A DNA stretch of 64,000 bases from Hormiphora californensis. Lineage: Eukaryota > Animalia > Ctenophora. The notes beneath the pieces were generated by a model. The model searched no databases and was not told the DNA's origin. It worked only from the letters and a program-made list of their open reading frames with translations. Positions 15,001 through 24,000 of this stretch are shown here, piece by piece (the first letter of the stretch is position 1; each line of letters begins with the position of its first letter). Both the position numbers and the translations under genes were made by a program. The DNA lies in NCBI GenBank assembly GCA_020137815.1, contig CM035359.1, positions 4,030,001 through 4,094,000 of the forward strand. Reading direction: 5' to 3'.

Positions 15001-18000
15001 TAAAAAATTACAAACCCTACGGAAAATGGTAGGTTTTGTTCACTCAAAACATGTCAAAGTTTCATAAAATCATCGGAAAAATCATCTGTCGTGTGGCTCA
15101 CACCACCATTTTGGTTCGGCATGTCATCGGTGTGACCTAACATTTCAAATGTTGTTATACAATGTGAAATTCACATGACGTTGTTACCCAGTTTTCCCCG
15201 GTTTTAACATGTTGTTAAGTACCATTTTTTCCCCGGTTTTAACATGTTGTTATACCAATTTCAGCAGCAACAAGTTGTCCAGCAACAGCAACAACAGCAA
15301 CATGGCCAGACGGAGGCTCAACAGCTGTTGCAACTGTACACTGCAATCGCTGCAACATACGGGCATGAGGTGAGCTTACTATTCAATTCGACTTAATTAG
15401 GGCTTGATTATTATCTTATCTCAATTGTCAGCTAGTTATCCGGGATAACATTTTATTATACCCCTGGCCCTATTACATATCTCCTTCGGGTACGAGCTGT
15501 CCCCCATTCTCTCCTACGCTGCTATTAAGTCGCTATCAGACTGTCAGATACACCCAATTATACCCTGGCTATTGCCTAGCTAGACCCTGTTTCGTGCACC
15601 GTGTAAAGGGACGGTTAGAAAATAACAACCTGGCTAATGTGTTTCCCTCCAGGGAGCTCAATTCTGGTGGCAGTCCCAGCAGATGAAGGGTAACCAGCAG
15701 CAGCCACAACAGGCTACCACCCAGTCCCCTGCTAACACCGGACTATCTGGCTTCTCAACGGGCAACATGGGAGGTGGAGCTGGTGGAGGTGAGGAAAAAT
15801 ATTTTTATTGGGTTTAACTATTTTGGGTGGGAAACAGTCTTATAAATCAAGTTTCAAACAAGTAACACTCTCACACACACAGGGGTACCACACAGCATAG
15901 GCTGCAACTAAGGGTCCCTAAGTCTGTCTGTCTTCCCCAAGACCCACACGATGTTATTATATGTTCTAAGGGTCCATCCTAAGAAGGGCCCCCTTTTTAT
16001 TTATCGTCGCGGGGCGCAGAAAGAGAGATGGTCGAACAGGGCAAGACCCACGTAGGATGATGGACTTTGAGACAGTTACTTGTTTGTATGAAAGTCCAAC
16101 TTGTCACAAGTATCTGTATAAAGATTTGTCTGTCTAAAAGTAACTAATTTACAGTTTCCCTGGTGGGATTGAGATCTGTTAAAACTCCCCTCACTCTCAC
16201 CAGAGTCATGTTAAAAAACGGTGTTTGACGTCCGTCTAAGTGTATAGTCTATAACCCGCCCACGGCTCACAAACAGTTCATACATTTGCAGTTTCATGTT
16301 TGTTTCATTTTGAATGCTCTGTTACACTGACATACACCCGTCTAAGTCTCTCTTAACTCTTTAATCCTAAATCTATCCTAAATCTATCACTACACAACCG
16401 TATCGCCTAGTTTGGTTCAGTCATTCTGTCAAATGGTGCTCCTTTTCTGTATCTTTCAACATAGTACCTCTAATAGCTGATCTCTAACGCACTCAATACC
16501 TGCTCGTTTTCTTGTACTCAGGTCACGTCCATAATATTGCTCTGTTTCAAAACATACTCCTTGTGCCAATGCTCCACTATATCCCCTAATAATTCCCAAA
16601 ATTTCAAGTTTCTATCTTCAAAACTGTGGTCTCAGTAACATTAAAACTGTCCCTGCATCATCCTGCATTCTGGATACAGAATAACTTTGCGGATGTGTGA
16701 CATAAACGAATTCTCGGGATTCTCCAAACTCTCTCACAAACAGTTCATACATTTGCAGTTTCATGTTTGTTTCATTTTGAATGCTCTGTTACACTGACAT
16801 ACACCCGTCTAAGTCTCTCTTTAATCCTAAATCTATCCTAAATCTATCACTACACAACCGTATCGCCTAGTTTGGTTCAGTCATTCTGTCAAATGGTGCT
16901 CCTTTTCTGTATCTTTCAACATAGTACCTCTAATAGCTGATCTCTAACGCACTCAATACCTGCTCGTTTTCTTGTACTCAGGTCACGTCCATAATATTGC
17001 TCTGTTTCAAAACATACTCCTTGTGCCAATGCTCCACTATATCCCCTAATAATTCCCAAAATTTCAAGTTTCTATCTTCAAAACTGTGGTCTCAGTAACA
17101 TTAAAACTGTCCCTGCATCATCCTGCATTCTGGATACAGAATAACTTTGCGGATGTGGACTCACCTTCTCCCCAGGATTGCTAACTCCTTCAAACCCCGA
17201 CCTGCTGGCATCTCCATCAAACCTAGATCTCCCAAACCTGTTTCCTAATTCTCTTCAGCTCGGATCACCTCTTCTCCCTTCCCGTGGATCACCTCCCCTC
17301 CCCTCCTCTCGGATCGCATCTTCCTTCTCGGATCTCATCCCTTCCTCTCTCCTCCCCTCCCCGGATCCCATATCCTCTTCTCCACTACATAAACACTTTC
17401 ATTTTCATTGTTGTTATAGCTGAAGACGTCTGACATAGTTCAGTCGAAAGCTCCTGTTCTTAATTGAATATTAGTACTGCAAAATCGTTGTTTCTCTTTA
17501 ATTGTTGCGGATGTGTGACATAAACGAATTCTCGGGATTCTCCAAACTCTCTCACAAACAGTTCATACATTTGCAGTTTCATATTTGTTTCATTTTGAAT
17601 GCTCTGTTACACTGACATACACCCGTCTAAGTCTCTCTTTAATCCTAAATCTATCCTAAATCTATCACTACACAACCGTATCGCCTAGTTTGGTTCAGTC
17701 ATTCTGTCAAATGGTGCTCCTTTTCTGTATCTTTCAACACAGTACCTCTAATAGCTGATCTCTAACGCACTCAATACCTGCTCGTTTTCTTGTACACAGT
17801 ACATCAAACCTAGATCTCCCAAACCTGTTTCCTAATTCTCTTCAGCTCGGATCACCTCTTCTCCCTTCCCGTGGATCACCTCCCCTCCCCTCCTCTCGGA
17901 TCGCATCTTCCTTCTCGGATCTCATCCCTTCCTCTCTCCTCCCCTCCCCGGATCCCATATCCTCTTCTCCACTACATAAACACTTTCATTTTCATTGTTG

Positions 18001-21000: not shown

Positions 21001-24000
21001 TTCAGTCATTCTGTCAAATGGTGCTCCTTTTCTGTATCTTTCAACACAGTACCTCTAATAGCTGATCTCTAACGCACTCAATACCTGCTCGTTTTCTTGT
21101 ACATCAAACCTAGATCTCCCAAACCTGTTTCCTAATTCTCTTCAGCTCGGATCACCTCTTCTCCCTTCCCGTGGATCACCTCCCCTCCCCTCCTCTCGGA
21201 TCGCATCTTCCTTCTCGGATCTCATCCCTTCCTCTCTCCTCCCCTCCCCGGATCCCATATCCTCTTCTCCACTACATAAACACTTTCATTTTCATTGTTG
21301 TTATAGCTGAAGACGTCTGACATAGTTCAGTCGAAAGCTCCTGTTCTTAATTGAATATTAGTACTGCAAAATCGTTGTTTCTCTTTAATTTTCATTCTCC
21401 AAACTCTCTCACAAACAGTTCATACATTTGCAGTTTCATATTTGTTTCATTTTGAATGCTCTGTTACACTGACATACACCCGTCTAAGTCTCTCTTTAAT
21501 CCTAAATCTATCCTAAATCTATCACTACACAACCGTATCGCCTAGTTTGGTTCAGTCATTCTGTCAAATGGTGCTCCTTTTCTGTATCTTTCAACACAGT
21601 ACCTCTAATAGCTGATCTCTAACGCACTCAATACCTGCTCATTTTCTTGTACGGATCACCTCTTCTCCCTTCCCGTGGATCACCTCCCCTCCCCTCCTCT
21701 CGGATCGCATCTTCCTTCTCGGATCTCATCCCTTCCTCTCTCCTCCCCTCCCCGGATCCCATATCCTCTTCTCCACTACATAAACACTTTCATTTTCATT
21801 GTTGTTATAGCTGAAGACGTCTGACATAGTTCAGTCGAAAGCTCCTGTTCTTAATTGAATATTAGTACTGCAAAATCGTTGTTTCTCTTTAATTTTCATT
21901 CTCCAAACTCTCTCACAAACAGTTCATACATTTGCAGTTTCATATTTGTTTCATTTTGAATGCTCTGTTACACTGACATACACCCGTCTAAGTCTCTCTT
22001 TAATCCTAAATCTATCCTAAATCTATCACTACACAACCGTATCGCCTAGTTTGGTTCAGTCATTCTGTCAAATGGTGCTCCTTTTCTGTATCTTTCAACA
22101 CAGTACCTCTAATAGCTGATCTCTAACGCACTCAATACCTGCTCGTTTTCTTGTACATCAAACCTAGATCTCCCAAACCTGTTTCCTAATTCTCTTCAGC
22201 TCGGATCACCTCTTCTCCCTTCCCGTGGATCACCTCCCCTCCCCTCCTCTCGGATCGCATCTTCCTTCTCGGATCTCATCCCTTCCTCTCTCCTCCCCTC
22301 CCCGGATCCCATATCCTCTTCTCCACTACATAAACACTTTCATTTTCATTGTTGTTATAGCTGAAGACGTCTGACATAGTTCAGTCGAAAGCTCCTGTTC
22401 TTAATTGAATATTAGTACTGCAAAATCGTTGTTTCTCTTTAATTTTCATTCTCCAAACTCTCTCACAAACAGTTCATACATTTGCAGTTTCATATTTGTT
22501 TCATTTTGAATGCTCTGTTACACTGACATACACCCGTCTAAGTCTCTCTTTAATCCTAAATCTATCCTAAATCTATCACTACACAACCGTATCGCCTAGT
22601 TTGGTTCAGTCATTCTGTCAAATGGTGCTCCTTTTCTGTATCTTTCAACACAGTACCTCTAATAGCTGATCTCTAACGCACTCAATACCTGCTCGTTTTC
22701 TTGTACATCAAACCTAGATCTCCCAAACCTGTTTCCTAATTCTCTTCAGCTCGGATCACCTCTTCTCCCTTCCCGTGGATCACCTCCCCTCCCCTCCTCT
22801 CGGATCGCATCTTCCTTCTCGGATCTCATCCCTTCCTCTCTCCTCCCCTCCCCGGATCCCATATCCTCTTCTCCACTACATAAACACTTTCATTTTCATT
22901 GTTGTTATAGCTGAAGACGTCTGACATAGTTCAGTCGAAAGCTCCTGTTCTTAATTGAATATTAGTACTGCAAAATCGTTGTTTCTCTTTAATTTTCATT
23001 CTCCAAACTCTCTCACAAACAGTTCATACATTTGCAGTTTCATATTTGTTTCATTTTGAATGCTCTGTTACACTGACATACACCCGTCTAAGTCTCTCTT
23101 TAATCCTAAATCTATCCTAAATCTATCACTACACAACCGTATCGCCTAGTTTGGTTCAGTCATTCTGTCAAATGGTGCTCCTTTTCTGTATCTTTCAACA
23201 CAGTACCTCTAATAGCTGATCTCTAACGCACTCAATACCTGCTCATTTTCTTGTACGGATCACCTCTTCTCCCTTCCCGTGGATCACCTCCCCTCCCCTC
23301 CTCTCGGATCGCATCTTCCTTCTCGGATCTCATCCCTTCCTCTCTCCTCCCCTCCCCGGATCCCATATCCTCTTCTCCACTACATAAACACTTTCATTTT
23401 CATTGTTGTTATAGCTGAAGACGTCTGACATAGTTCAGTCGAAAGCTCCTGTTCTTAATTGAATATTAGTACTGCAAAATCGTTGTTTCTCTTTAATTTT
23501 CATTCTCCAAACTCTCTCACAAACAGTTCATACATTTGCAGTTTCATATTTGTTTCATTTTGAATGCTCTGTTACACTGACATACACCCGTCTAAGTCTC
23601 TCTTTAATCCTAAATCTATCCTAAATCTATCACTACACAACCGTATCGCCTAGTTTGGTTCAGTCATTCTGTCAAATGGTGCTCCTTTTCTGTATCTTTC
23701 AACACAGTACCTCTAATAGCTGATCTCTAACGCACTCAATACCTGCTCATTTTCTTGTACTAGCCACCACCCACCCCTCCACCCCACCCACCTCCCCCAC
23801 CCTGGCCCGTCCCAAAGTAGAGGACTTTGCTACACACCACACTACAGAAACAATCCTTGTGTTTTGGTGCACTAAGTCGCTTATCGCGTGTAACAATTAA
23901 TAAATGTTCTTATCAGGCCACCCGACTTCTAGAACATCTTACATTCCAGTAGCGCTGCAATCTGTCATATACCCCTTATTTGTGTTTGATCGTTTTCGTT

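What the first reader, a model, noticed from the sequence alone, without database searches (positions are those of the whole stretch)
16266..23760. Retrozyme-like array: 12 sense-strand minimal hammerhead ribozymes in 550-bp tandem units inside a FUBP intron
Seen: each unit carries ATAG-CTGAAGA-C-GTCTGA...TCAGTC-GAAA-GCTC-CTGT on the pre-mRNA strand. Units are nearly identical, and a recurring 504-bp variant (46-bp deletion plus a linked SNP) gives higher-order structure. Known: Penelope-like elements carry minimal type I hammerheads with a palindromic stem III thought to cleave as dimers, and metazoan non-LTR retrozymes are hammerhead-bearing tandem repeats processed into small circular RNAs. 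Inference: tandem copies supply dimer partners in cis, so transcription of the host gene could release ~550-nt monomers or circles and cut the intron up to 12 times. The unit is longer than typical retrozymes and about half of it is captured flanking DNA.
Basis: partly seen in the sequence, partly recalled or inferred. Interest (0 to 1): 0.88.

Follow-up and report, generated by a model that had tools for sequence, protein, structure and literature searches.

The report
Hitch-hiking Penelope ribozyme in tandem repeat
In an intron of a likely comb-jelly gene, the ribozyme-bearing tail of a Penelope-type jumping gene sits inside a second, very common repeat, and the hybrid was likely copied on the spot into twelve near-identical units, so the ribozyme motifs are probably passengers rather than a spreading circular-RNA element.

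Summary
The 12 identical minimal type I hammerheads are real (17420-23415, + strand) and lie in intron 15789-25614 of a FUBP-like KH gene with a ctenophore orthologue. Each 550-bp unit is a chimera: 288 bp from the 3' end of an RT-GIY-YIG Penelope-like element (PLE), 3 bp of filler, and 259 bp of an unrelated high-copy repeat 'A'. The founder PLE fragment (17158-17504) sits in A with an 11-bp target-site duplication and ends in the C-terminus of a PLE protein (30 of 31 residues). An empty A site exists in a public contig. All 14 A copies end at one base, and so does the array; it does not end where PLE copies end. All 12 hammerheads share a loop allele that is rare in the family. The 550/504 pattern fits one unequal exchange. 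Best reading: local amplification of a nested insertion with a passenger ribozyme. Cleavage, circles and copy number are untested. PLE-derived hammerhead arrays are in print, and this scan has noted similar arrays in other genomes. The unexplained part is repeat A, an unclassified family with a fixed end.

The parts
15653..15788 (+). FUBP-like exon upstream of the array (ends in phase 1, GT at 15789)
   Evidence: aligns to residues 487-535 of the Mnemiopsis orthologue P0011, 0 of 500 shuffles as good
15789..25614 (+). GT-AG intron (9,826 bp) that holds the array; inferred, no spliced read seen
   Evidence: splice sites and phases; orthologue collinear on both sides
16266..16517 (+). repeat A, copy 1 (5'-truncated, with a 7-bp insertion)
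16518..16977 (+). repeat A, copy 2, full 460-bp monomer; high-copy family of unknown class
16978..17795 (+). repeat A, copy 3, interrupted by the PLE fragment
   Evidence: empty-site joint 17146->17505 in run X7
17147..17157 (+). 11-bp target-site duplication, left copy
17158..17504 (+). founder 5'-truncated 3' end (pLTR) of an RT-GIY-YIG Penelope-like element, 347 bp
17156..17248 (+). last 30 codons and stop of the PLE ORF (first two bases shared with the duplication)
   Evidence: 30 of 31 residues identical to the C-terminus of P0001; 27 of 31 to full-length P0008
17416..17457 (+). founder minimal type I hammerhead: helix I 17416-19/17454-57, core 17420-26, bulged C 17427, helix II 17428-33/17440-45 with one U-U, GAAA 17446-49, palindrome 17449-52, predicted cut after 17453
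   Evidence: sequence
17505..17515 (+). 11-bp target-site duplication, right copy
17796..23760 (+). 11 amplified chimeric units in A-end register: one of 557 bp (7-nt insert), eight of 550 bp (288 PLE + 3 + 259 A), two of 504 bp (21653-22156, 23257-23760); one hammerhead each
25615..25632 (+). likely 18-nt exon after the array
   Evidence: AG/GT and phase; not separately supported by homology
25670..25925 (+). likely Gly/Ser-rich exon
   Evidence: phase-consistent; match to P0011 not above shuffles (64 of 500)
26096..26168 (+). likely last coding exon
   Evidence: aligns to the extreme C-terminus of P0011 (659-676), 6 of 500 shuffles as good

Best explanation
The array is a nested insertion, the hammerhead-bearing 3' end of a Penelope-like retroelement sitting inside a short tandem of an unrelated repeat A, that was likely amplified in place at the DNA level, with the ribozyme as a probably weak or silent passenger. 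Steps: (1) a partial tandem of repeat A lay in the FUBP-like intron (structure shown, order inferred). (2) A PLE reverse transcriptase likely inserted a 5'-truncated 347-bp copy into the third A; the 11-bp duplication, empty site and ORF match are shown. (3) Copying restarted at A's fixed end and re-entered the PLE fragment, first at 17216 and later at 17262, giving the 550- and 504-bp units (junctions shown, mechanism unknown). (4) Unequal exchange likely raised the copy number; one exchange misaligned by three units gives the observed order of SNP-linked junctions (inferred). (5) Host transcription would pass all 12 motifs on the sense strand, but cleavage needs a dimer fold and, by analogy with the anole PLE, possibly the PLE protein, so little cutting and little effect on splicing are expected (inferred, untested).
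For: PLE origin. In runs X7 and X11 the fragment continues upstream with the same unlisted sequence, so this copy is 5'-truncated, and in X5 7 contigs run on into differing flanks behind 17503. Duplication and empty site. A is a repeat family: 384 (X1) and 1153 (X5) contigs laid on 818 bp, A-to-A tandem joints, and 6 further joints from 16972-16978 to different restart points. 14 of 14 A copies end at the same base and the array ends there. One founder: 12 of 12 hammerheads have T at 17439, where A makes up 34370.1 of 34536.8 summed depth in X1 and 251446.8 of 251641.5 in X5. Junction order G|long x6, A|short, G|long x2, A|short, A|flank. Weak activity: helix I <=0.001 and dimer helix III 0.0004 pairing probability; literature.
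Against: Ordinary unequal exchange does not explain why every new junction starts at A's exact end, so an element-specific step is needed and its nature is unknown. Units are identical enough to fit a single rolling-circle event, and polishing could have erased differences. The 550-bp junctions were not among the 8 joints listed, so neither their presence in raw data nor their absence elsewhere in the genome is shown. The folding result had no active-ribozyme control. No genome was available. Axolotl retrozyme hammerheads that are weak as monomers cleave much better as dimers.
Confidence: 0.62

Rival explanations
1. The machinery that spreads repeat A (an unknown reverse transcriptase starting at A's 3' end with template jumps, or a rolling-circle nickase using A's end as origin) wrote most of the array in one or two events from a template that already carried the PLE fragment.
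For: 14 of 14 A copies share one end, with five different continuations locally. Six more fixed-end/variable-start joints with depths 218.7-557.3 occur in X1 and X5. The first A copy is 5'-truncated, as in PLE-type partial tandems. 93 bp of A are 71-72% like the arms of a 1.3-kb inverted-repeat element at 46331-47641.
Against: Two identical short junctions with the same SNP are simpler as one event plus one exchange. No flush duplication at the array's outer ends was seen by eye. No coding partner for A was found.
Confidence: 0.17
2. A true retrozyme: hammerhead cleavage releases a 550-nt monomer, it circularises, and the PLE reverse transcriptase copies the circle into a tandem array.
For: Tandem type I hammerheads with a palindromic helix III. 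A closely matching intact PLE ORF exists. The unit length is inside the 51-972 bp range reported and the array meets that preprint's operational definition. A TATA-like word lies about 35 nt upstream of each core (function untested).
Against: The array ends at A's end, not at the PLE end near 17503-17504. It is contiguous with its own founder insertion. The 550-bp unit differs at both junctions from the 587-bp span between the first two hammerheads. One circle cannot give two junction types. The only RNA-library contig over the motif carries family alleles and runs through the cut site (it may be DNA).
Confidence: 0.08
3. The nested insertion is real but the assembly inflated or homogenised the number of units.
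For: Zero differences among eight 550-bp units. The same gene holds a noisy, partly duplicated patch at about 8.6-11.9 kb. No listed contig spans the stretch, and the chimeric junctions were not among the listed joints.
Against: Two length classes with a linked SNP in a nested order are hard to produce by collapse or polishing. In X1 the depth not carrying the family allele is 166.7 at 17439 and 271.5 at 16852, against 36.4-64.5 for four long divergent contigs in the same run; this hints at several copies, but the tool states that summed depth is no copy number.
Confidence: 0.1
4. The array has been recruited to tune FUBP expression by cutting the nascent intron.
For: Sense orientation and 12 copies in an RNA-binding regulator's intron.
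Against: Very young structure with no conservation evidence. Weak predicted activity. Introns cut by a slow hammerhead were still spliced in mammalian cells (PMC2995048 passages citing two other papers). About 42-44% of Xenopus retrozyme copies overlap introns, so the position is not special.
Confidence: 0.03

Closest known systems
Minimal type I hammerheads in pLTRs of EN+ Penelope-like elements (Cervera and de la Pena 2014, PMC4209133; parts 1-2 of 4 read)
   Same: Short helix I (4 bp), long helix II closed by G10.1-C11.1, unpaired base between A9 and G10.1, palindromic 15.2-16.2, position in the 3' repeat of an RT-GIY-YIG element, mostly in truncated copies.
   Different: Here the fragment is fused to an unrelated repeat and multiplied 12-fold in tandem. 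Helix II has 6 positions with one U-U rather than 7-8 bp. Host is a ctenophore, which the parts read do not cover (supplements not seen).
Animal non-LTR retrozymes (Cervera and de la Pena 2020, PMC7229834, passages and Discussion; Li, Clavereau and Pollet, bioRxiv 10.64898/2026.07.22.740005, parts 1-3 of 5)
   Same: Non-coding tandem units, one type I hammerhead each, length variants, derivation from a PLE pLTR; local amplification from a truncated PLE end is proposed in the preprint.
   Different: Minimal rather than canonical hammerhead; 47% of the unit comes from another repeat; register and end set by that repeat; no evidence of dispersal, expression or circles.
Poseidon element of Anolis (PAc; Frangieh et al. 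2024, PMC11167929; parts 1-2 of 4 read)
   Same: RT followed by C-terminal GIY-YIG, hammerhead in the pLTR, genomic copies ending at fixed sites shortly after it.
   Different: PAc hammerhead cleaves only with its protein, which needs the first 172 nt of the ORF; the units here keep only 51 nt after the cut site and no ORF start. Clade of P0008 not tested by a tree.

Membership tests
PLE minimal hammerhead | CUGANGA and GAAA cores with NUH cut site | tested here: met
   12 of 12 copies
PLE minimal hammerhead | Helices I and II, bulge after A9, G-C closing pair, palindromic helix III | tested here: met
   descriptor; bulged base varies C/T in family contigs; no covariation test, as no related loci were obtained
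PLE minimal hammerhead | Self-cleavage as a dimer | not testable with these tools
   folding models disfavour it, without a control ribozyme
EN+ Penelope-like element (source of the fragment) | One ORF with RT and C-terminal GIY-YIG | tested here: met
   P0008: RVT_1/HTH_animal look-alikes at score 0.98 and TM 0.69; GIY-YIG at 744-775, E 0.004, under Pfam's cut-off
EN+ Penelope-like element (source of the fragment) | 5'-truncated insertion with target-site duplication | tested here: met
EN+ Penelope-like element (source of the fragment) | Placement in the Penelope/Poseidon clade | not tested
   no reference proteins in hand; resemblance is from recall and domain order
Animal non-LTR retrozyme | [quoted passage not shown] | tested here: met
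   monomer MFE -8.4 kcal/mol for a 61-nt piece
Animal non-LTR retrozyme | Dispersed family of the same unit | tested here: inconclusive
   both halves are dispersed separately; the chimeric junctions were not among the listed joints; no genome held
Animal non-LTR retrozyme | Array ends made by the PLE enzyme (PLE end site, target duplication round the array) | tested here: not met
   array ends at A's end; no flush outer duplication seen by eye
Animal non-LTR retrozyme | Unit-length linear and circular RNA in cells | not testable with these tools
   only contigs were available; none carried this locus's alleles in an RNA library

The most novel reading that the evidence does not exclude
A retrozyme caught at birth by capture: an unclassified ctenophore repeat family with one fixed end and many restart points picked up a PLE hammerhead and multiplied it, so that host-gene transcription now supplies dimer-competent RNA that could yield 550/504-nt circles. 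The amplifying enzyme would belong to repeat A rather than to the PLE that donated the ribozyme.
Probability: 0.15. Interest if true: 0.65.

Novelty: new member of a known kind. Interest (0 to 1): 0.32.

Why it matters
It shows, with founder, target duplication, empty site and parent protein all in view, how a hammerhead tandem array can arise from a dead PLE end. That warns against reading every such array as an active retrozyme. It gives a ctenophore example; the literature searches run here listed no paper describing one. The fixed-end repeat A is the open lead: if a dedicated enzyme restarts at that end, it is an undescribed amplification route.

Tried and rejected
No whole genome is held, so no genome-wide census. 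Rfam: no hammerhead or other credible family in the array. Exact-pattern scans found nothing: hammerhead pattern in metagenome, viral and genome contigs, A pattern in viral and metagenome contigs. The search for related loci with P0001 in viral contigs gave 0 loci, so no covariation analysis was possible. No read-laying result exists for the right junction, flank depth or downstream exons, so presence of the array in the second sample and splicing across it stay open. A as a coding element: six-frame translation shows no frame over 56 aa. One of those frames found only a 53-aa call, by its 89% identity probably another A copy, and a 23-residue match to a TPR protein judged chance. A as the 5' part of the same PLE: no match to P0008. 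A protein search with the upstream exon found nothing (77 candidates, none scored). Similar residual depths in X5 (194.8 and 187.6) might mean that a second sample carries the locus alleles, but the residual letters are not given, so this is not used. bioRxiv 10.64898/2026.03.07.710320 (passages) was irrelevant. My frame for the exon at 15266 was wrong and that row is disregarded.
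Full report
Observation. The window holds 12 identical hammerhead-like motifs on the + strand from 17420 to 23415, spaced 587, 550 (six times), 504, 550, 550 and 504 bp. The anatomy is a 4-bp helix I, the CUGAAGA core, one unpaired C, a 6-position helix II closed by G-C with one U-U, GAAA, the palindrome AGCU and a predicted cut after 17453. 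This matches the features listed for minimal PLE hammerheads in PMC4209133 (parts 1-2 of 4 read). My descriptor found only these 12 in the window and 0 hits in 300 resamples; it was written after seeing the motif. Rfam does not detect them.

Host gene. Exons at 1883 and 3091 are KH domains, and the first is closest to FUBP1/2 among solved structures. A Mnemiopsis leidyi protein, P0011, is 96% identical to the exon at 5579 and aligns in order to exons at 14534 and 15653 (0 of 500 shuffles each) and, after the array, to the exon at 26097 at its extreme C-terminus (6 of 500). The Gly/Ser-rich exon at 25672 does not beat shuffles (64 of 500). Splice signals and phases give an intron 15789-25614. 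No spliced read was seen. With a Pleurobrachia bachei hit for the PLE piece, the host is very likely a ctenophore.

The PLE half. The segment 17158-17504 begins with the last 30 codons of an ORF. They match the C-terminus of P0001 at 30 of 31 residues and of the 877-aa cluster member P0008 at 27 of 31. P0008 resembles RT plus HTH_animal plus GIY-YIG clusters by features and by predicted structure; its Pfam GIY-YIG hit is weak (E 0.004, under the cut-off). The segment is flanked by an 11-bp duplication. A contig in run X7 joins 17146 to 17505, which is the empty target. Contigs in X7 and X11 continue upstream of 17156 with one shared sequence, and 7 contigs in X5 run into differing flanks behind 17503. 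So the founder is an ordinary 5'-truncated PLE insertion.

The other half. The target is a 460-bp repeat, A, present here as a truncated copy, a full copy and the interrupted copy. It is a high-copy family: 384 contigs of X1 and 1153 of X5 were laid on the 818 bp of A plus PLE fragment, with A-to-A tandem joints and six joints from 16972-16978 to different restart points. A has no frame over 56 aa, no Rfam match and no informative protein hit. A 93-bp part is 71-72% like the arms of an inverted-repeat element at 46331-47641. Its class is unknown.

The array. All 14 A copies end at the same base, followed in turn by A (twice), the PLE fragment after a 7-nt insert, the fragment at 17216 (eight times), the fragment at 17262 (twice) or the right flank. 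The common unit is 288 bp PLE, 3 bp filler and 259 bp A. Its PLE-to-A junction has lost the duplication and about 30 bp relative to the founder. All 12 hammerheads carry T at 17439, where more than 99% of summed depth in X1 and X5, and the contigs of X7 and X11, carry A; so they descend from one copy. A SNP 11 bp before A's end marks both short junctions and the terminal unit. A duplication of the last 504 bp, then one exchange misaligned by three units, gives exactly the observed order. This is inference from one haplotype.

Mechanism. A PLE-written array should end at the PLE's own end, near 17503-17504 here; in the anole element genomic ends fall on the reverse-transcription start sites (PMC11167929, parts 1-2 of 4). 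This array ends at A's end and touches its own founder. I therefore favour local amplification with a passenger ribozyme (0.62). The fixed A end needs an element-specific restart step, which may have done most of the work (0.17). A PLE-driven circle is less likely (0.08), as is assembly inflation (0.10); the gene has a noisy, partly duplicated patch at about 8.6-11.9 kb, and the chimeric junctions were not among the 8 joints listed.

Activity. In a two-hammerhead transcript helix II forms (probability 0.74-0.95) but helix I (<=0.001) and the dimer helix III (0.0004) do not, and the double-hammerhead fold lies about 20 kcal/mol above the minimum. No active ribozyme was run as a control, so this is weak. 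In print, minimal PLE hammerheads showed no monomer and low dimer cleavage; the anole PLE hammerhead cleaved only with its protein and no RNA-seq reads ended at its site; 8 of 9 Xenopus dimers did not cleave. On the other side, axolotl dimers cleave well (PMC7229834 passages). Introns cut by a slow hammerhead were still spliced, whereas a fast HDV ribozyme blocked splicing (PMC2995048 passages, second-hand). The one RNA-library contig over the motif carries family alleles, runs through the cut site and may be DNA.

Comparison and novelty. The preprint 10.64898/2026.07.22.740005 (parts 1-3 of 5; supplements not seen) reports that tandem hammerhead repeats derive from PLE pLTRs, span 51-972 bp, often overlap introns, and may grow by local amplification. 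The array meets its operational definition of a retrozyme but not the mechanistic one. PMC8557442 and PMC3846280 were seen as passages. Searches for ctenophore hammerheads or satellites listed no paper describing one; supplements of PMC4209133 and PMC7229834 were not seen and might. Earlier notes of this scan list 8 similar arrays in other genomes and none for this sequence or genome; they are unchecked. Verdict: real, young, a new member of a known kind, with a chimeric unit and an unexplained fixed-end partner repeat. Interest 0.32.

Noticed in passing
window 16518-16977 and all A copies: Unclassified high-copy repeat with one fixed end and many restart points; the part just before the end is several-fold deeper than the rest in both samples.
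   Followed up: partly
window about 8600-11900: G/C-homopolymer-rich, noisy patch inside the FUBP-like gene that repeats 5829-6213 (93%), 7907-8440 (78%) and 11829-11990 (94%); likely an assembly fault.
   Followed up: partly
window 46331-47641: 1.3-kb element that is one long inverted repeat (95% over about 1,320 aligned bases), followed by TTAGGG-like repeats at 47768-47825.
   Followed up: partly
window 6230-7141 (-): RNase H-bearing retroelement fragment in another intron of the same gene (Pfam E 2.7e-13).
   Followed up: partly
window 45684-46253 (+): 189-aa frame with no Pfam hit; from recall it looks like the C-terminal end of a non-LTR retroelement.
   Followed up: no
window 48352-50847 (+): 831-aa uninterrupted frame with no Pfam family.
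   Followed up: partly
window about 52900-59300 (+): Exons of a SNF2-family helicase gene (Pfam E 2.3e-20 for 54476-54778), probably ISWI-like by recall.
   Followed up: partly
window 17400-17419 and each unit: The pyrimidine-rich run ending in TAG just before each core looks like a 3' splice site on the host sense strand, as an intron end does at helix I in Drosophila virilis Penelope; use as a cryptic acceptor is untested.
   Followed up: no
window 48004-48079: Near-perfect 76-nt hairpin (Rfam mir-458 under gathering score), probably a small inverted repeat.
   Followed up: no
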